From contig JAMPAI010000001.1 of assembly GCA_023667315.1 (NCBI GenBank), forward strand, positions 72,914-136,913: a stretch of 64,000 nucleotides of DNA. Direction: 5' to 3'. Under the pieces are notes generated by a model, which was not told the DNA's origin, made no database searches, and was given only the letters and a program-made list of their open reading frames with translations. Below, piece by piece: positions 38,316-57,491 of this stretch. Source of the stretch: Ruminococcus flavefaciens. Lineage in GTDB: Bacteria; Bacteroidota; Bacteroidia; Bacteroidales; P3. A program made the translations under genes and the position numbers. Numbering within the stretch: the first letter of the stretch is position 1; each line of letters opens with the position of its first letter.

Positions 38316-39611
38316 TTAAACCACCGTCGCGATGCCGTAGAGCGGAAGGTTGGTGATGCCGTTGGCGTTGTCGTGGTAAGGCAGAGAGGAAGCTTTGTAG
38401 GCGTGTTGCGGCCGGTGGGTCTGGCAAAAGAGCGTAAAGCTTCGCGACCTCAGGTTTTCGCCCGCCTTTACCTCGATGGGGATTACCTCCCCTTTGTTCT
38501 GAATCACGAAATCCACTTCAGAGGTGCTGCGCTCGTTGGTCCAATAACCGATGTAATCGCAAGAAGAGCAGGTAAGTTCCTGCATTACGAATTGTTCGGT
38601 CAACGCCCCCTTGAATTCGGTAAATATGCGGTTTCCGTCGGCCAGAACCTGTGCCTCCAAGCCCGTAAGGGCGCACAGCAAGCCCACATCCACCAAAAAC
38701 AGCTTGAACACGTGCATGTCCTGGTAGGCCTTGAGGGGCATGCGCGGCGCGCTTACCCGGTGCGATTTAAGCACCAGTCCGCAGTCGTGCAGCCACATAA
38801 TGGCCAGTTCAAAGTCTTTGGCGCGCGCACCCGTACGCAACACGCCGTAGATAAACTTCTTGTTTTCCTTGGCCAATTGCGCCGGCAGGCTGTCCCACAC
38901 CATATTGATGCGCGGTACCTGTTCGTAGGGCGCGTGTTTCGAAAAATCGGCCTGATAGGAATGCAGTATCTCGAACTGCGTTTCCCTTACAGTGATATAA
39001 TCCTGCGTGTCAATCCATTGTTGAACCACTTCCGGCATTCCGCCCACGTAGAGATAGGTGCGCATGAGGTGCAGCAATTCCTCGTGAAAGAACGAAACGC
39101 TTTCCCATTCTTTTTTCAGCAGGGATTCCCGCAGCATTTCCTTGCCGCAGGCCTGTAGGAATTCGCCGAAAGAAAGCGGGTACAGTTCCAAGAATGAAAC
39201 CTTACCCACCGGAAACGACTGATGTTGGTGCAGGTTGATTCCGAGTAGCGAACCGGCAGCCACGATAGCGTATTGCGGAGCGTTCTCGCAAAAATATTTC
39301 AAGGAAGTCAGGCCACCCGTCACCGACTGGATTTCATCAAAGATAATCAGTGTATCGGCGGCTTCTATCTTTTTGTTGAAATGCAGCTGGATGGTATCGA
39401 TAATCCGTTTCGTATCGAAATTTTCCTCAAACAGGTTCTTGAACCGGATATCGTTCTCGAAGTTGATATACAGCGTTTCCTTAAAGCAAACCCTGCCGAA
39501 TTCTTTCATCAGTCAGGTCTTGCCCGTTTGCCGCGCTCCCCTTATGATCAAAGGTTTGCGACCTTTTTTTGCCTTCCATTCCTGTAAACTCCGTAACGCA
39601 TCTCGTTTCAT
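38316..39611 (-). pseudogene. AAA ATPase (AAA_14 + DUF4143 type) interrupted by an in-frame TGA right after the Walker A motif
   Basis: Minus strand from ATG 39611 reads MKRDALRSLQEWKAKKGRKPLIIRGARQTGKT-TGA(39515-39513)-L-MKEFGRV..., continuing in the same frame as the ORF 38316-39509. The C-terminus has EVDFVIQNKGEVIPIEVKAG. Confidence 0.8.
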
Positions 39612-39667
39612 GACAAACTCCGAATCTTTGCTGCAAAGATGCCCATTTTTACCGAGTTTTCAAAATT

Positions 39668-39733
39668 ATCTTGATAAAAATGTATTACAGCAACACTTTT
39701 ATCTTGATAAAAATGTATTACAGCAACACTTTT
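39668..39733 (+). repeat. exact tandem duplication of a 33-bp unit
   Basis: atcttgataaaaatgtattacagcaacactttt occurs twice, followed by the inverted atcaagat. Confidence 0.9.
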
Positions 39734-39934
39734 ATCAAGATAATACGCTTTCGTGTGTGTTGTGTTTTTTGTTAAGATACTGTTTTAAAATTAATTTGTT
39801 GTTTTGTTGTATCGAAACGTCCCAAAAAATCAGCGATTCTTTGATTTTTCGGAACGTTTTAATGTAAGCCGAATGCGGAAATTAAAGGTCGGTTTAAAAC
39901 CAATGTTTTGATCAAAATCCGTACATTCGCACCC

Positions 39935-51367: not shown

Positions 51368-51375
51368 CAAAGATA
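51368..51375 (-). promoter_or_regulatory. -7 box TAtcTTTG only 6 nt upstream of the mltD ATG
   Basis: Minus strand reads ttttgTATCTTTGcaccttATG. Confidence 0.45.
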
Positions 51376-51474
51376 CAAAAGCCGAGAGCAAAGAGAAAAT
51401 TTATTTTTTCTTTGCCGAGGCGAAGTACCTTCTGTGAGGCAAAAGAGAGCTCCACATATGGAAAATGAATTGAA

Positions 51475-51597
51475 TTTCTCAAAAATGTGTAAAACTAAAC
51501 CCGATGAGTTTCTCAAAAACGTGTAAAATTTATCTTGTTAAGTTTCTTAAAAATGTGTAATTTTGTCTCTGATAAGTTTCTAAAAAACGTGTATATG
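51475..51597 (+). repeat. four direct repeats with an exact 34-bp period (20-bp conserved core + 14-bp variable part), the last containing the ATPase start codon
   Basis: Units start at 51475, 51509, 51543 and 51577. The cores are tttctcaaaaatgtgtaaaa, tttctcaaaaacgtgtaaaa, tttcttaaaaatgtgtaatt and tttctaaaaaacgtgtatat. Confidence 0.9.
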
Positions 51598-52962
51598 AAA
51601 CGTAAGGTTTATCAAGATTTGCTGACTTGGAAAAAAGAGCATAAAGGAGATACGGCGCTTTTGATAGAAGGTGCGCGGCGTATCGGAAAAAGCTATATCG
51701 CGGAAGAATTTGCCAAAAGGGAATACGACGCTTATCTTTTGGTCGATTTCAGTAAGGCTCATCCCAAGGTAAAGGAGCTTTTTGATCTTTATTTAGACGA
51801 TATTGATACACTTCTGAGTAATCTTGAGGTTTATTACAAGAGGAAACTCACTCCGCGCCCTTCGCCTCAATCCGAAGCGAAATCCCTTGTCATTTTCGAT
51901 GAAGTGCAGTTTTGTCCGCGAGCCCGCGCAGGCATCAAGCATCTGGTGGCGGACCGTCGATACGATTACATAGAAACGGGTTCGCTTATCTCGATCAAGA
52001 AAAATGTAAAGGGCATCATGTTGCCCTCGGAAGAACATTCCCTCGAAATGTTCCCGATGGATTTTGAAGAATTTTTGTGGGCGATGGGCGATGAAATGCT
52101 GATGCCGTACATCCGCACGCAGTTCGAAAAGAGGCGGCCGATGCAGATGTTTCACCGCCGCGCCATGGATTACTTCCGTCAATACCTTATTGTGGGAGGA
52201 ATGCCCCAGGCCGTGGAACGCTATGTGGCAACACGGGATTTTGTTTCTGTGGATGAAGTGAAGCGGGATATTTTGACGCTGTATAGGAACGATATCCGAA
52301 AATATGCCGACCGTCAAGAGACCAAAGTAGCCTCCATATTTGAAGAGATTCCCGGGCAACTGCAAAAGCACGAAAAAAAGTTTCGTTTGTCAGACTTGCA
52401 GGAAGATGCCCGTATGCGCGATTACCGGCAGGCCTTTTTTTGGTTGACCGATGCCAAGATAATCAACTGCTGCTATAATTCCACCGAACCGAGCATAGGT
52501 TTGAAATTGAAGGAAGACCGCACTTCGATGAAATGTTATATGGGTGATACCGGCTTGCTGATAAGCCAGGCTTTCGATGAACGGAGTCTGGTATCCGGAG
52601 AATTATATAAAAAGTTGATGTTCGATAAATTGGAGGTGAACAGCGGCATGTTGGTCGAAAATATTGTGGCGCAGATGCTTCGGGCGGCAGGTCATAGACT
52701 GTACTTTTACAGCAGAAATTCAGCAAATGCCGAAGAACGTATGGAAATCGATTTTTTGGTGTCGAAACCGGTGATAACGAGCCGGCATAACATCAGTCCG
52801 ATAGAGGTGAAATCGGGGAGGCAATATACGCTCTCATCGCTCCGGAAGTGCATTGCAAAATACGGCCCCCGTCTTGCTACCCCGTATGTCCTTCACGACA
52901 AAGACCTTAAGGTTGAAGACGGTATTGTTTATTTGCCCTTGTATATGACGCCATTGCTGTAA
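51595..52962 (+). CDS. AAA ATPase (AAA_14 + DUF4143 type)
   Basis: ORF 51535-52962 trimmed to the ATG at 51595 (MKRKVYQDLLTWKKEHKGDTALLIEGARRIGKSYI, Walker A). Walker B-like LVIFDEVQ. C-terminal MEIDFLV...SPIEVKSG. Confidence 0.87.
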   Translation: MKRKVYQDLLTWKKEHKGDTALLIEGARRIGKSYIAEEFAKREYDAYLLVDFSKAHPKVKELFDLYLDDIDTLLSNLEVYYKRKLTPRPSPQSEAKSLVIFDEVQFCPRARAGIKHLVADRRYDYIETGSLISIKKNVKGIMLPSEEHSLEMFPMDFEEFLWAMGDEMLMPYIRTQFEKRRPMQMFHRRAMDYFRQYLIVGGMPQAVERYVATRDFVSVDEVKRDILTLYRNDIRKYADRQETKVASIFEEIPGQLQKHEKKFRLSDLQEDARMRDYRQAFFWLTDAKIINCCYNSTEPSIGLKLKEDRTSMKCYMGDTGLLISQAFDERSLVSGELYKKLMFDKLEVNSGMLVENIVAQMLRAAGHRLYFYSRNSANAEERMEIDFLVSKPVITSRHNISPIEVKSGRQYTLSSLRKCIAKYGPRLATPYVLHDKDLKVEDGIVYLPLYMTPLL

Positions 52963-52990
52963 AGCCGCTTTCCATTAAAGCTATTCAATC

Positions 52991-53059
52991 CGCATAATTC
53001 GATTTGCATAAATCATGCAGTCGGTCATGTAGATGGCCCGCCTGTACGGAAATCCCTAA
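52991..53059 (+). pseudogene. ghost of a paralogue of the 55502-56656 ATPase gene: upstream repeat plus the last ~11 codons only
   Basis: cgcataattcgatttgcataaatcat (52991-53016) matches the 14-bp repeats at 55423-55478. atgtagatggcccgcctgtacggaaatccc (53027-53056) matches 56612-56641 at 28/30, with TGG changed to TAG. Confidence 0.65.
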
Positions 53060-55380: not shown

Positions 55381-55399
55381 TTTTCAAAAACGTGTAACC
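55381..55399 (+). repeat. solo copy of the 34-bp-array core motif
   Basis: ttttcaaaaacgtgtaacc versus tttctcaaaaacgtgtaaaa. Confidence 0.7.
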
Positions 55400-55422
55400 T
55401 ACCATCGGTCACCGAAAATTAT

Positions 55423-55478
55423 TCGATTCGCATAATTCGTTTCACATAATTCGATTTGCATAATTCGATTTGCATAAT
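55423..55478 (+). repeat. four tandem 14-bp repeats overlapping the ATPase promoter
   Basis: ttcgattcgcataa, ttcgtttcacataa, ttcgatttgcataa, ttcgatttgcataa. Confidence 0.88.
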
Positions 55479-55486
55479 TATTTTTG
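55479..55486 (+). promoter_or_regulatory. -7 box TAttTTTG upstream of the 55502 ATPase gene
   Basis: TATTTTTG, 15 nt upstream of the ATG. A TTTG inside the repeat lies about 20 nt further upstream (-33 position). Confidence 0.5.
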
Positions 55487-55501: not shown

Positions 55502-56656
55502 ATGGAAAAGGTAGGCAATCCGTTTATTGTGGCGGGAAAAATAGAACCGGAATACTTCTGCGACCGGATAACGGAATCCGCGCGTCTGATAAAATCCATT
55601 ACCAACGGCAACAATATGGTGGTTATTTCGCCGCGCCGTATGGGCAAGACAGGATTGATCCGCTTTTGCTACGACAAGCCCGAAATCGCCAAGGGATATT
55701 ACACGTTCTTTATCGACATTCTCCATACCTCGAGTCTGCGGGAGTTCACCTATCTGCTCGGGCGGGAGATCTACGAAACGCTCCGGCCCCGAAGCCGCAA
55801 GATGGCAGACCTGTTTATCAGAACCCTTAAGTCGCTTAGCGGACAGTTCGGGTTCGACCCCTTTTCGGGTACGCCCACGTTCAATGTGGAGTTGGGCGAT
55901 ATCGAACGTCCGGAATATACGCTGGAAGAAATTTTCCGCTACCTTGCCGCGGCGGATAAACCGTGTATCGTGGCGATCGACGAGTTTCAGCAGATTGCCA
56001 AATATCCGGAAAAGAATATCGAGGCCTTGCTGCGCACGCATATCCAGAATTTGAGCAATTGCCATTTTATCTTTGCAGGAAGCGAACGGCACATGATGCA
56101 GGAGATGTTTACCTCCGCCGCCCGCCCGTTCTATAACAGTGCGGATATGCTGGAGCTGCGGGCCATCGTGCCGGAAATCTACATTCCGTTTATCGTGGGT
56201 CATTTCAAGAAACGCAAGCGGAAAATAGCGGAAGAGAACGTGGAGAAGGTCTATGACCTCTTCAAGGGGCATACCTACTACATCCAGAAGACGTTCAACG
56301 AAGCCTTCGCGGATACGCCCCAAGGTGGGGAATGCACGCTTGAGATTATCCAATCGGCCATCGACAGCATGCTGGCGGCGAACGACACCGTTTTCCGCGA
56401 GATTCTCTCGAACATCCCCGAAAAGCAGAAAGAGTTGCTCTACGCCATTGCCAAAGACGGCGAGGTGTCGCGCCTCACGTCGGCCGATTTTATCAAACGC
56501 CACCGCCTCGCGTCGGCAAGTTCCGTGCAGTCGGCCATAAAGAAACTGCTCGAAAAAGACCTCATTACCGAAATCAGCAAGGTCTTTTCCGTTACAGACA
56601 AACTGTTCGCCATGTGGATGGCCCGCCTGTACGGAAACCCCAGGGGCTTATTGTAG
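55502..56656 (+). CDS. P-loop NTPase of the Arch_ATPase (PF01637-like) type with a C-terminal DUF234/wHTH-like region
   Basis: ORF 55484-56656 (TTG) trimmed to the ATG at 55502 (MEKVGNPFIVAGK...). Walker A SPRRMGKTGL and Walker B IVAIDEFQ. Confidence 0.82.
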   Translation: MEKVGNPFIVAGKIEPEYFCDRITESARLIKSITNGNNMVVISPRRMGKTGLIRFCYDKPEIAKGYYTFFIDILHTSSLREFTYLLGREIYETLRPRSRKMADLFIRTLKSLSGQFGFDPFSGTPTFNVELGDIERPEYTLEEIFRYLAAADKPCIVAIDEFQQIAKYPEKNIEALLRTHIQNLSNCHFIFAGSERHMMQEMFTSAARPFYNSADMLELRAIVPEIYIPFIVGHFKKRKRKIAEENVEKVYDLFKGHTYYIQKTFNEAFADTPQGGECTLEIIQSAIDSMLAANDTVFREILSNIPEKQKELLYAIAKDGEVSRLTSADFIKRHRLASASSVQSAIKKLLEKDLITEISKVFSVTDKLFAMWMARLYGNPRGLL

Positions 56657-56754: not shown

Positions 56755-57225
56755 ATGAGTGAAGCAGAATTGAAGTTGGTGAAAGAGGCCAAGAATTGTA
56801 CGCTGTACACGATACAATTTTTGGCGGCAGATAATAGCGAGTTTGAGCGGTTTTACACCAAATTCAAGGATGATGTAGAGCTGAGTCCCGATTTGATGCG
56901 TATTGTTGATTTTCTTGGGCGTATAGCTGATTTCGGGGCGTTGGAACGTTTTTTCCGTCCTGAAGGCAAGATGAGTGATAATGTCTGTGCGCTTCCTGTC
57001 GTTCAATCCAAGTTGCGTCTTTATTGTCTGCGTTTGTCGGATAAGATATTGATATTGGGTAATGGGGGCGTTAAGAAAACGAAGACGTACAATGAAGATG
57101 ATGAATTGCGGGGGTACGTCTTAACTTTGCAGAAATTTGACCGATTGATAAAACAAGGTCAGAAAGAAGGTTCAATAGTAGTGTCGGAAAACAGAATAGA
57201 AACTGATAAATCTTTTCCGTTATGA
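56755..57225 (+). CDS. RelE/HigB (Gp49/DUF891)-like putative toxin with an N-terminal extension
   Basis: 156 aa. SKLRLYCLRLSDKILILGNGGVKKTKTYNEDDEL resembles the RelE-fold core (..RI.Y....IILL.GF.KK...). ATGA overlap with the downstream HTH gene. Confidence 0.55.
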   Translation: MSEAELKLVKEAKNCTLYTIQFLAADNSEFERFYTKFKDDVELSPDLMRIVDFLGRIADFGALERFFRPEGKMSDNVCALPVVQSKLRLYCLRLSDKILILGNGGVKKTKTYNEDDELRGYVLTLQKFDRLIKQGQKEGSIVVSENRIETDKSFPL

Positions 57226-57491
57226 AATCCATAAAAATGTCTTTTGACAAGATGATTGCGGCGGTTCCTGACGATATAAGACAGGAAGTGGAATTGGAAT
57301 TTGCCATTTCCAACCGTATATGTGCGCTTATGGAGAAACAAGGTTTGTCTAAAATAGCGTTTGCCAAAGCTTTGGACAAAAAGCCGAGCGAAGTAACCAA
57401 ATGGTTGAGCGGGCAGCATAATTTTACGCTGCGAACCATTTCGCTGATATCATCCTTTTTTGGTGAACCCCTTATTCAAGTGAAATACTGA
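57222..57491 (+). CDS. XRE-family helix-turn-helix protein (HigA-like putative antitoxin)
   Basis: 89 aa. QGLSKIAFAKALDKKPSEVTKWLSGQHNFTLRTISLI is a canonical HTH_3. Confidence 0.8.
   Translation: MKSIKMSFDKMIAAVPDDIRQEVELEFAISNRICALMEKQGLSKIAFAKALDKKPSEVTKWLSGQHNFTLRTISLISSFFGEPLIQVKY

What the first reader, a model, noticed from the sequence alone, without database searches (positions are those of the whole stretch)
51475..51597. Four direct repeats with an exact 34-bp period leading into, and including, the start codon of a DUF4143-type ATPase gene
Seen: the units start at 51475, 51509, 51543 and 51577.
- Each has a 20-bp conserved core: tttctcaaaaatgtgtaaaa, tttctcaaaaacgtgtaaaa, tttcttaaaaatgtgtaatt and tttctaaaaaacgtgtatat.
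- Each core is followed by a 14-bp variable part ending in (g/t)a(g/a)ag-like bases.
- Position 12 alternates t/c/t/c across the four units.
- The ATG of the ATPase (51595) lies inside the fourth core.
- A solo core copy sits at 55381-55399, and a related 33-bp repeat at 39668-39733 sits in front of the other DUF4143 gene.

34 bp is a little over three helical turns, so all cores face roughly the same side of the helix.

Inference: this could be an iteron- or operator-like array for a DNA-binding protein, possibly the ATPase itself. It could also be arm-type sites left by an integrative element, or a recombination substrate.

I know of no described regulatory array of this form for these widespread orphan ATPases.
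Basis: seen in the sequence. Interest (0 to 1): 0.62.

Follow-up and report, generated by a model that had tools for sequence, protein, structure and literature searches.

The report
Private repeat array of ATPase-nuclease gene
The four 34-bp repeats are real and are one example of a 33/34-bp-spaced repeat array built into the promoter of nearly every gene of a very common, untested candidate anti-phage ATPase-nuclease family (PDC-S01); the array is most likely that protein's own docking and self-control site, which gives a direct experimental handle on the family.

Summary
Four units start at 51475, 51509, 51543 and 51577 with an exact 34-bp period, and the ATG (51595) abuts the last core. 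No such match is expected by chance.

The gene is an AAA_14/DUF4143 ATPase-nuclease, PADLOC candidate PDC-S01.

In 82 homologous loci (64-99% identity, many Bacteroidales genera, unrelated neighbourhoods) the same array recurs:
- 1-7 units per locus, mostly 3.
- Core AAAATCTCRAAAASGTGTAAA, with GTG-to-GTG spacing of 33 bp (133/168) or 34 bp (27/168).
- Sites are about 400-fold denser than in flanking DNA.
- One unit carries the Bacteroidetes -7 box directly after GTG. In the window this is unit 3.

Spacers between cores have diverged to random similarity, yet locus-specific core variants stay identical within a locus. A loop of the nuclease domain (residues 374-378) co-varies with core bases 8-10.

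Three further subfamilies, including the window's second paralogue, carry different cores at the same period.

A high-confidence model shows an Orc1/Cdc6-like AAA+ and winged-helix fold followed by a PD-(D/E)xK domain.

Best reading (about 0.6): the array is a cognate operator or assembly site for the encoded protein. Binding has not been shown. I found no publication describing it, but earlier notes of this scan describe the same class.

The parts
51472..51505 (+). Repeat unit 1 (core 51475-51494 plus variable spacer), upstream of the promoter
   Evidence: The family PWM scores it 22.4 bits.
51506..51539 (+). Repeat unit 2. Its spacer ends in the -33-like CTTG (51534-51537).
   Evidence: PWM score 20.8 bits. 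The CTTG lies 20 nt before the -7 box, which is the geometry seen for box-bearing units in relatives.
51540..51573 (+). Repeat unit 3. Its GTG (51555-51557) is followed directly by the Bacteroidetes-type -7 box TAATTTTG (51558-51565), so the core fills the promoter spacer.
   Evidence: sequence. PWM score 16.0 bits. In 61 of 79 related loci one unit has GTG followed by [TC]AnnTT[TC]G.
51574..51597 (+). Repeat unit 4, probably in the short 5' leader. Its GTG is at 51589-51591, 6 nt before the A of the ATG (51595).
   Evidence: PWM score 17.1 bits. In relatives the last GTG lies 5-10 nt or 13-18 nt before the ATG.
51595..52962 (+). AAA_14/DUF4143 ATPase-nuclease gene (455 aa). It is PADLOC candidate PDC-S01 and lies in low-GC DNA (about 45-48% against about 58% in the flanks).
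   Evidence: - Pfam hits AAA_14 and DUF4143.
- PADLOC PDC-S01, E 3.6e-112.
- GC profile.
- Invariant G31-K32, D386 and E404-V-K406.
- AF2 model with pLDDT 89; Foldseek matches Arch_ATPase and Orc1/Cdc6.
55381..55397 (+). Solo half-core TTTTCAAAAACGTGTAA just after the outer-membrane barrel gene. It is probably a relic of a deleted array and gene, or an extra docking site.
   Evidence: It matches unit 2 at 16 of 17 positions (D3). It matches only the right half of the family motif (5.7 bits). Orphan arrays and gene remnants are common elsewhere.
39666..39743 (-). Array of the second DUF4143 paralogue: 2.4 units of 33 bp. In gene orientation each unit reads GATAAAAGTGT-N9-ACATTTTTATC. It lies just upstream of that gene's predicted promoter.
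   Evidence: TRF and sequence. The same 33-bp architecture appears in homologues L209-L222.
38316..39611 (-). Second AAA_14/DUF4143 paralogue, 27% identical to the first. It has an in-frame TGA at codon 33 (39513-39515).
   Evidence: The homologue P0121 (97% identical) has Trp at that codon.

Best explanation
The array is the cognate DNA site of the protein encoded immediately downstream. That protein has an Orc1/Cdc6-like AAA+ and winged-helix module joined to a PD-(D/E)xK nuclease domain, and belongs to PADLOC candidate defence family PDC-S01.

Anatomy of a unit:
- Each 33/34-bp unit has a roughly 20-bp core, (A)AATCTCRAAAASGTGTAAA, followed by a free spacer.
- One unit doubles as the promoter. 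Its core fills the 20-nt gap between a -33 TTG and a -7 TAnnTTTG box.
- In the window this is unit 3. Units 1 and 2 then lie upstream of the promoter, and unit 4 lies between the promoter and the ATG.

Inferred mechanism:
- Protein molecules bind the phased cores cooperatively, probably as an ATP-dependent oligomer.
- Binding occludes the promoter and the leader, so the gene represses itself and the nuclease is held at a low, buffered level.

What is shown and what is inferred:
- Shown: the repeats, their phasing, their strict association with this gene family, their overlap with the promoter motif, locus-specific conservation of the cores, covariation with a protein loop, and the fold.
- Inferred: binding by the encoded protein, repression, and oligomer assembly.
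For: 1. The array travels with the gene.
- 82 upstream regions of homologues (64-99% identity; Bacteroides, Prevotella/Segatella, Phocaeicola, Parabacteroides, Muribaculaceae and others; different neighbours) hold 250 motif sites. That is 3.05 per 230 nt, against 0.0076 per 230 nt in 963 kb of flanking DNA.
- GTG-to-GTG spacing is 33 bp in 133 and 34 bp in 27 of 168 intervals.

2. The reverse test agrees. Of 114 assessable metagenome arrays found by DNA pattern alone, 66 are followed by the gene and 23 by its remnants.

3. The array overlaps the promoter. In 61 of 79 loci one unit has GTG followed directly by [TC]AnnTT[TC]G, and in 29 of the 62 such units a TTG sits at the canonical 19-20-nt distance.

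4. Selection acts on locus-specific cores.
- Within-locus identity at core positions 9-13 is 0.83-0.96, against 0.47-0.82 between loci.
- Spacer identity within a locus (0.32) equals that between loci (0.32).

5. Specificity belongs to the gene, not the host. The window carries two paralogues with different cores. Four subfamilies have different cores at the same 32-33-bp period.

6. Protein and DNA co-vary.
- Residues 374-378, the beta1-beta2 loop next to catalytic D386, give the highest normalised mutual information with core positions 8-10 (0.77-0.82; the control-trait maximum is 0.57).
- Tyr375 pairs with G at position 10 in 10 of 10 loci and 0 of 67 others.
- Each trait needs 6 parsimony changes on a tree built without the loop. 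All 3 well-supported independent contrasts go the same way and none goes the opposite way.

7. The fold fits a DNA binder. The AF2 model has pLDDT 89.2 and pTM 0.90. Foldseek's best matches are archaeal Arch_ATPases 2qen and 2fna (E 7e-8), then ORC/Cdc6 subunits, including Orc1/Cdc6 bound to origin DNA (2qby).
Against: - No binding, footprint or expression data exist. The transcription start is predicted from motifs only.
- RNA contigs laid on a related locus were uninformative.
- The covariation test is underpowered: 3 supported contrasts give a sign-test p of 0.25. The loop is also the most variable part of the protein, so shared descent could inflate the association.
- 42% of pattern-found arrays lack an intact gene. 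That is unexpected for a pure cis operator, unless gene loss is recent or the sites also act in trans.
- The co-varying loop lies in the nuclease domain and not in the winged helix. The array could therefore be a nuclease recognition site rather than a classical operator.
Confidence: 0.6

Rival explanations
1. The units are tandem duplicates of the promoter itself. They would be read by RNA polymerase, or act through DNA curvature from phased A-tracts, and would tune expression without any binding by the ATPase.
For: - Each unit resembles a promoter module: TTG, then a 17-20-nt A-rich core, then TA...
- One unit is a consensus promoter.
- The A-tracts are spaced about 9-10 bp apart within a core.
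Against: - Promoter spacers are not normally sequence-conserved, yet here the spacer-filling core is the conserved part and GTG is invariant.
- Units without a -7 box have their TTG at a non-canonical distance, yet they keep the core.
- Some subfamilies replace the A-run with TTTT, GATT or GCGGAGAG and keep the period.
- In the second subfamily the array lies wholly upstream of the -33 element.
- This reading does not explain why cores are identical within a locus, or why they co-vary with a protein loop.
Confidence: 0.13
2. The array is a recombination or mobility substrate. Options are the end of a gene cassette, arm-type or att sites, or a contingency locus in which gain and loss of units switches or tunes expression.
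For: - Clean one-unit (33-bp) copy-number differences occur between loci that encode the identical protein: L003-L005 have 2 units and L006 has 3 (L033, with the same upstream sequence, also has 3).
- 33-bp and 66-bp variants appear in gut contigs.
- Unit number ranges from 1 to 7.
- The gene sits in a low-GC islet, and a solo core lies 3.8 kb downstream.
- Many arrays sit next to deleted genes.
Against: - There is no integrase or transposase in the islet.
- No repeat was found at the 3' end of the gene and no target-site duplication was seen.
- Deletion junctions in the remnant genes differ between loci and show only microhomology.
- Cores are conserved at 64% protein identity although the spacers are saturated, which indicates long-term selection rather than recent duplication.
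- Copy-number change is compatible with an operator array and could be a secondary tuning feature.
Confidence: 0.1
3. The repeats act in the mRNA leader, as binding sites for a translational regulator or for the protein itself on RNA.
For: - In most loci the -7 box is in unit 1, so two units would be transcribed.
- The last unit abuts the start codon, 5-10 or 13-18 nt away.
Against: - In the window, and in at least seven other loci, the units upstream of the promoter are equally conserved.
- In the second subfamily the whole array is upstream of the promoter.
- The RNA fold is not significant (z = -0.96), and no Rfam family matches.
Confidence: 0.07
4. The cores are bound by a conserved host factor of Bacteroidales, such as a global regulator, and not by the adjacent gene product.
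For: The GTG and ATCT parts of the core are shared across subfamilies.
Against: - Different core variants coexist in one genome.
- The motif is essentially absent from 963 kb of other Bacteroidales DNA.
- Core variants track the linked protein.
Confidence: 0.07

Closest known systems
PADLOC phage-defence candidate PDC-S01 (AAA_14 + DUF4143; COG1373)
   Same: The window protein matches PDC-S01 models over its full length (E 3.6e-112). It has the AAA_14 and DUF4143 domains and the D...EVK nuclease motif. The literature describes PDC-S01 as one of the most abundant candidate defence genes, still untested (PMC12988326, PMC13356809), and DUF4143 as a PD-(D/E)XK family (PMC3424549).
   Different: None of the papers I found mentions a cis-acting repeat array or any DNA specificity. 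That array is what the finding adds.
Archaeal Orc1/Cdc6 with origin recognition boxes (ORB) next to its own gene
   Same: Both have an AAA+ module, lid and winged helix. Foldseek hits 1w5s, 2qby_B and 1fnn at probability 1.0. Both have repeated DNA elements directly upstream of the gene that encodes the binder.
   Different: - The repeats here are direct and strictly 33-bp phased, and they embed a promoter. They do not flank an AT-rich unwinding element.
- The protein carries a C-terminal nuclease domain.
- The gene is a dispensable, frequently deleted accessory gene.
- There is no evidence of replication function.
Plasmid iterons with an autoregulated rep gene (P1, R6K, RK2; from my own knowledge)
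   Same: Both have phased direct repeats private to one protein, next to its gene. Both show coevolution of protein and site, and a variable repeat number.
   Different: - The period here is 33 bp rather than about 22 bp.
- The protein is not a Rep-family initiator.
- The location is chromosomal, with no origin features.
- The repeats overlap the promoter itself.
Arch_ATPase / ATPase_2 proteins (PDB 2qen, 2fna)
   Same: These are the best structural matches (E 7e-8 and 2.5e-7, TM 0.53-0.54 on the target). A member of this family lies 2.5 kb downstream in the same islet (55502-56656) and also has tandem repeats in its promoter.
   Different: Those proteins lack the DUF4143 nuclease domain. Their function is also unknown.

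Membership tests
PADLOC PDC-S01 (AAA_14 + DUF4143 single-gene candidate) | Full-length match to the PDC-S01 profile HMMs | tested here: met
   PDLC04786 matches with E 3.6e-112 over residues 1-452, and PDLC04792 with E 6e-111.
PADLOC PDC-S01 (AAA_14 + DUF4143 single-gene candidate) | N-terminal AAA_14 P-loop ATPase plus C-terminal DUF4143 (PD-(D/E)xK) domain with catalytic residues | tested here: met
   - Pfam: AAA_14 at residues 20-161 and DUF4143 at 232-408, both above their cut-offs.
- G31-K32, D386 and E404-V405-K406 are invariant in 60 sequences from four subfamilies.
PADLOC PDC-S01 (AAA_14 + DUF4143 single-gene candidate) | Protection against phage | not testable with these tools
   The literature says validation is still pending (PMC12988326, read).
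Autoregulatory operator / iteron-like array | Several phased copies of one motif, far above chance, next to the gene of the presumed binder, conserved across homologues | tested here: met
Autoregulatory operator / iteron-like array | Overlap with the promoter or leader of the regulated gene | tested here: met
   The -7 box motif follows the GTG of one unit directly in 61 of 79 loci, and in the window at 51558-51565. The promoter is predicted from the motif only.
Autoregulatory operator / iteron-like array | Specific binding by the encoded protein, and repression | not testable with these tools
   Only indirect support exists: the loop 374-378 covaries with core positions 8-10, and the protein has an Orc1/Cdc6-like winged-helix fold.
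Replication-origin iterons / Orc1-Cdc6 ORB origin | Initiator-type AAA+ protein with a winged helix | tested here: met
   Foldseek matches ORC, Cdc6 and Orc1 chains at E 2e-5 to 3e-4 and probability about 1.0 over 380-420 columns. Global TM is low (0.2-0.3) because domain orientations differ.
Replication-origin iterons / Orc1-Cdc6 ORB origin | Repeats flank an AT-rich unwinding element and lie at a replicon's origin | tested here: not met
   The units are head-to-tail and abut the ATG, with no separate AT-rich block. The loci are chromosomal, in varied contexts, and the gene is often deleted.
Integrase arm-type sites / mobile-element terminal repeats | A recombinase gene in the element, repeats at both ends, and a target-site duplication | tested here: not met
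   - No integrase or transposase lies between mltD and ctp.
- No array lies 3' of the gene.
- Arrays occur only at the 5' end of this gene family or its remnants.
CRISPR-like repeat-spacer array | Spacers replaced between related loci, with cas genes nearby | tested here: not met
   Spacers are orthologously conserved among close relatives, for example L076-L086. One of them holds the -7 box. No cas genes are present.
Bacteroidetes primary-sigma promoter (-33 TTTG / -7 TAnnTTTG; from established knowledge) | TAnnTTTG with TTG 19-21 nt upstream | tested here: met
   In the window, CTTG lies at 51534-51537, followed by a 20-nt spacer and TAATTTTG at 51558-51565. Relatives show the same geometry. 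The TSS has not been mapped.

The most novel reading that the evidence does not exclude
The array is more than an operator. It would be the assembly track on which an Orc1/Cdc6-like ATPase-nuclease builds an ATP-dependent oligomer. Three units, each taking a dimer, would make a hexamer. This fits the modal three units and the palindromic units of the second subfamily.

The nuclease-domain loop 374-378 would read core bases 8-10 directly. Every PDC-S01 protein would then be a sequence-specific, programmable nuclease whose recognition site can be read off its own promoter.

Orphan arrays and solo cores would be trans docking sites. Self-cutting at the array would explain the many internally deleted remnant genes. 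Defence would work by recognising similarly phased sites on invading DNA.
Probability: 0.2. Interest if true: 0.85.

Novelty: new variant of a known kind. Interest (0 to 1): 0.62.

Why it matters
PDC-S01 (AAA_14/DUF4143) is reported as one of the most frequent candidate defence genes in prokaryotes and the most frequent single locus in rumen genomes (PMC12988326, PMC13356809). Nothing is known about its ligand, regulation or mechanism.

A private, strictly phased DNA array at each gene's promoter gives three things:
- A concrete candidate ligand.
- A predicted specificity determinant, the loop at residues 374-378.
- Simple experiments: EMSA, reporter assays and loop/core swaps.

The array also serves as an annotation marker. 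It finds intact genes, their true start codons and their deleted remnants.

Tried and rejected
I could not survey all DUF4143 paralogues of this genome or its relatives, and used the search for related loci, a pattern scan and the look-up of encoding contigs instead.
- RNA evidence for the transcription start. Metatranscriptome contigs laid on the Segatella copri-type locus break at the repeats and mix strains. They revealed 33/66-bp unit-number variants but no usable 5' end.
- DNA contigs of four runs that hold the window's organism or a relative. They show the four-unit array without variants.
- Structured RNA. There is no Rfam hit, and the fold z-score is -0.96. Rejected.
- First AF2 model from 32 close homologues. 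It was poor (pLDDT 63.7), and its Foldseek result was weak. It was superseded by the 60-sequence model.
- Sequence searches of the PDB. They found nothing.
- Winged-helix columns (251, 257, 273, 277). They associate with core position 14, but they mark a single clade and also associate with the spacer control traits. Rejected as evidence.
- Similarity between the sequence after the solo core and the gene's 3' end. It is too weak to call (by eye).
- TRF alone. It detects only 34 of 80 arrays because the spacers are diverged, so a motif model was needed.

Full report
**1. Observation**

The window sequence shows four head-to-tail units starting at 51475, 51509, 51543 and 51577, with an exact 34-bp period.
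- Each unit has a 20-bp core, TTTCTNAAAAAYGTGTAA.., and a 14-bp variable part.
- ATG 51595 follows the GTG of the fourth core, with three bases (TAT) in between.
- TRF and the repeat finder recover the array.
- The 20-mer with up to 3 mismatches occurs 3 times here and never in 100 shuffles.

The solo copy at 55381-55397 matches at 16 of 17 positions. It covers only the right half of the family motif.

The 33-bp repeat at 39666-39743 is real. The gene it precedes runs on the minus strand from 39611 and has an in-frame TGA at codon 33. The homologous protein P0121 (97% identical, same species label) has Trp at that codon.

**2. The gene**

- The ORF 51595-52962 has AAA_14 and DUF4143 domains.
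- It matches PADLOC's candidate defence family PDC-S01 over its full length (E 3.6e-112).
- It lies in a lower-GC stretch, in an islet between mltD and ctp.
- The window comes from GCA_023667785.1, a 'Bacteroides sp.' MAG.
- A sister genome has the same locus and the same four units, with one substitution.
- Papers describe PDC-S01 as very abundant and untested, and DUF4143 as a PD-(D/E)XK family.
- I found no paper that mentions upstream repeats.

**3. The array is a family-wide feature**

The search for related loci returned 80 loci with homologues of 64-99% identity, from many Bacteroidales genera and in unrelated neighbourhoods. Printing the 170 nt before each ATG showed repeats nearly everywhere.

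A 22-nt motif model (consensus AAAAATCTCRAAAASGTGTAAA, GTG invariant) gave these figures:

| Measure | Result |
|---|---|
| Sites in 82 upstream regions | 250 (3.05 per 230 nt) |
| Sites in 963 kb of flanking DNA, both strands | 32 (0.0076 per 230 nt) |
| Units per locus | 1 to 7; 52 of 82 loci have three |
| GTG-to-GTG spacing | 33 bp in 133 and 34 bp in 27 of 168 intervals |
| Distance from last GTG to ATG | 5-10 nt or 13-18 nt |

The window's exact 34-bp period is therefore a local variant of a 33-bp norm.

**4. The reverse test**

Of these:
- 66 are followed within 8-50 nt by the ATPase gene: 49 full-length, and 17 that run off the contig.
- 23 are followed only by remnants. Several of these keep the first 10-20 codons (MKRKIYQQLL..), joined to the last dozen codons or to other DNA, with different microhomology junctions.
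- 25 have no trace of the gene.
- 6 have no room left on the contig.

So the array occurs only at the 5' end of this gene or where the gene used to be. Gene loss is frequent.

**5. Relation to the promoter**

In 61 of 79 loci, one unit's GTG is followed directly by [TC]AnnTT[TC]G, the Bacteroidetes -7 box.
- In 29 of the 62 such units a TTG lies 19-20 nt upstream of the box, so the conserved core fills the promoter spacer.
- Units without the box mostly have their TTG at a non-canonical 17-nt distance.
- The box is usually in unit 1, which leaves two units in the leader.
- In the window the box is in unit 3: TAATTTTG at 51558-51565, with CTTG at 51534-51537.
- The window therefore has two units upstream of the promoter and one between the promoter and the ATG.

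**6. Evidence that the cores are read by a locus-specific factor**

Cores vary between loci, for example ..CTTGTTTTCGTG....CTAAGATTCGTG....CTCGATTTGGTG.. and ..CTCAGAAAGGTG... Within one locus they are the same:

| Region | Identity within a locus | Identity between loci |
|---|---|---|
| Core positions 9-13 | 0.83-0.96 | 0.47-0.82 |
| Spacer positions 22-32 | 0.32 | 0.32 |

The units are therefore old enough for the spacers to be saturated. Recent duplication cannot explain the identical cores, so selection must be keeping them alike.

The window's own two paralogues (27% identical) have different cores, so the specificity belongs to the gene and not to the host. The obvious candidate reader is the linked protein.

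**7. Covariation with the protein**

- Among about 250 variable alignment columns, residues 374-376 give the highest normalised mutual information with core positions 8-10 (0.77-0.82). No spacer control trait exceeds 0.57.
- The loop motif tracks the trinucleotide: N-x-S/D-R goes with TGA or AGA, K-Y-S/D goes with xAG, K-P-S-A-K goes with CGA, and K/R-x-S/D goes with CAA.
- Tyr375 goes with G at position 10 in 10 of 10 loci and in none of the other 67.
- On a tree built without the loop, both traits need six changes.
- The three well-supported independent contrasts all agree and none disagrees. Three contrasts cannot reach significance (p = 0.25).
- The signal is suggestive, not proven.

**8. 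Other subfamilies**

- Homologues of the window's second paralogue (L209-L222) carry two or three units at a 33-bp period. Each unit is a near-palindrome, CACTTTTATC-AA-GATAAAAGTG, placed just upstream of the -33 element.
- Two more distant paralogues turned up by chance in flanking DNA.
- One has 3 x ttcttggaaaagtggcaaaa at 32-33 bp.
- The other has 3 x aaattttgcggagagcggtaaa at exactly 33 bp, with the -7 box in unit 2.
- The period and layout are thus conserved across at least four subfamilies while the core changes.
- Arrays placed wholly upstream of the promoter argue for a DNA-level role rather than an RNA-level one. So do the missing RNA structure and the missing Rfam match.

**9. The protein fold**

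A 60-sequence alignment gave a confident model, with pLDDT 89.2 and pTM 0.90.
- The domains run in this order: AAA+ core, helical lid, a winged helix (helix 274-286 and hairpin 290-316), then a PD-(D/E)xK domain.
- In the nuclease domain, beta1 spans 370-374 and beta2 spans 383-390 with D386. Beta3 spans 400-405 with E404, directly followed by K406.
- The co-varying loop is the beta1-beta2 hairpin.
- Foldseek's best matches are the archaeal Arch_ATPases 2qen and 2fna, followed by ORC, Cdc6 and Orc1 chains including DNA-bound 2qby.
- The protein is therefore an Orc1/Cdc6-like DNA-binding ATPase fused to a nuclease.

**10. Dynamics**

- Loci encoding the identical protein P0056 differ by exactly one 33-bp unit: L003-L005 have two units and L006 has three. 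L033, whose upstream sequence matches L006, also has three.
- Gut contigs show one-unit and two-unit variants of the Segatella-type array.
- Contigs of four runs that hold the window's organism, or a relative about 95% identical, show the four-unit form only.

**11. Interpretation**

The best-supported reading is a cognate operator or assembly site through which the ATPase-nuclease binds its own promoter region and limits its own synthesis (confidence about 0.6).

The rivals each explain less of the evidence:
- promoter duplicates or curvature;
- a recombination or contingency substrate;
- an RNA leader element;
- a host factor.

An origin-iteron reading fails on anatomy and context. The high share of orphan arrays, and the fact that the co-varying loop lies in the nuclease domain, leave room for a bolder reading in which the array is the nuclease's recognition and assembly track.

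**12. Relation to earlier notes of this scan**

I reached this reading first and then looked up earlier notes. Many describe the same class of arrays before PDC-S01 genes in other genomes. They are unpublished AI notes and I do not count them as support. They do mean this window is a further instance, not a first sighting within the scan.

**13. Limits**

- The promoter, transcription start, binding and repression are all inferred.

Noticed in passing
window 52977-53059 and 55415-55486: A second repeat family, the 14-bp unit ATTCGATTTGCATA, forms a four-copy array ending in a TAttTTTG -7 box just before the ATPase_2 gene (55502-56656). One degenerate copy lies right after the DUF4143 stop codon. 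Together with the solo core at 55381, this suggests an old duplication of an [array-DUF4143-array-ATPase_2] block around the outer-membrane barrel gene, followed by reciprocal deletions.
   Followed up: partly
loci L091, L103, L111, L127, L132, L134, L142, L144, L157 and others (metagenome contigs): Many arrays are followed by remnant genes. The ATG and the first 10-20 codons are joined, at differing microhomology junctions, to the last dozen or so codons (..YLPLYMTPLL*) or to unrelated DNA. Of 114 assessable arrays, 48 lack an intact gene. Gene loss by internal deletion is recurrent, and arrays outlive their genes.
   Followed up: partly
window 51369-51441; L002 5700-5850: A unit of about 73 bp (gagagcaaag..tttgccgag..agtaccttctgtga.gcaaaaga), which contains an inverted repeat, lies between mltD and the array. 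It is present once in the window and twice in the sister genome. One related strain shows a 'goes back 73' joint there.
   Followed up: no
window 56755-57491 versus L002: The toxin-antitoxin-like pair (a 156-aa protein plus an HTH_3 protein) between ATPase_2 and ctp is absent from the sister genome GCA_023662825.1. There ctp follows ATPase_2 directly.
   Followed up: no
window 39513-39515 (minus strand): An in-frame TGA replaces the Trp codon after the Walker A motif (GKT-W-LMKEFG) of the second DUF4143 paralogue. The homologous protein P0121 (97% identical, same species label) has Trp there. This is either a recent pseudogene or an assembly error.
   Followed up: yes
L025, L034, L065 (about 100-170 nt upstream of the ATG): The motif cgtgtctactttt..gctggtaca recurs just upstream of the array in three loci from different Bacteroidales lineages. 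It may be a conserved insertion hotspot or the end of a small RNA gene.
   Followed up: no
L144 and L157, ORF starting MSISKDVLKQ.. (415 aa): A distant ATPase, with a weak match to the family profile, lies next to a remnant gene. It has its own short repeats (ttataaaat) upstream, two of them 33 bp apart.
   Followed up: no
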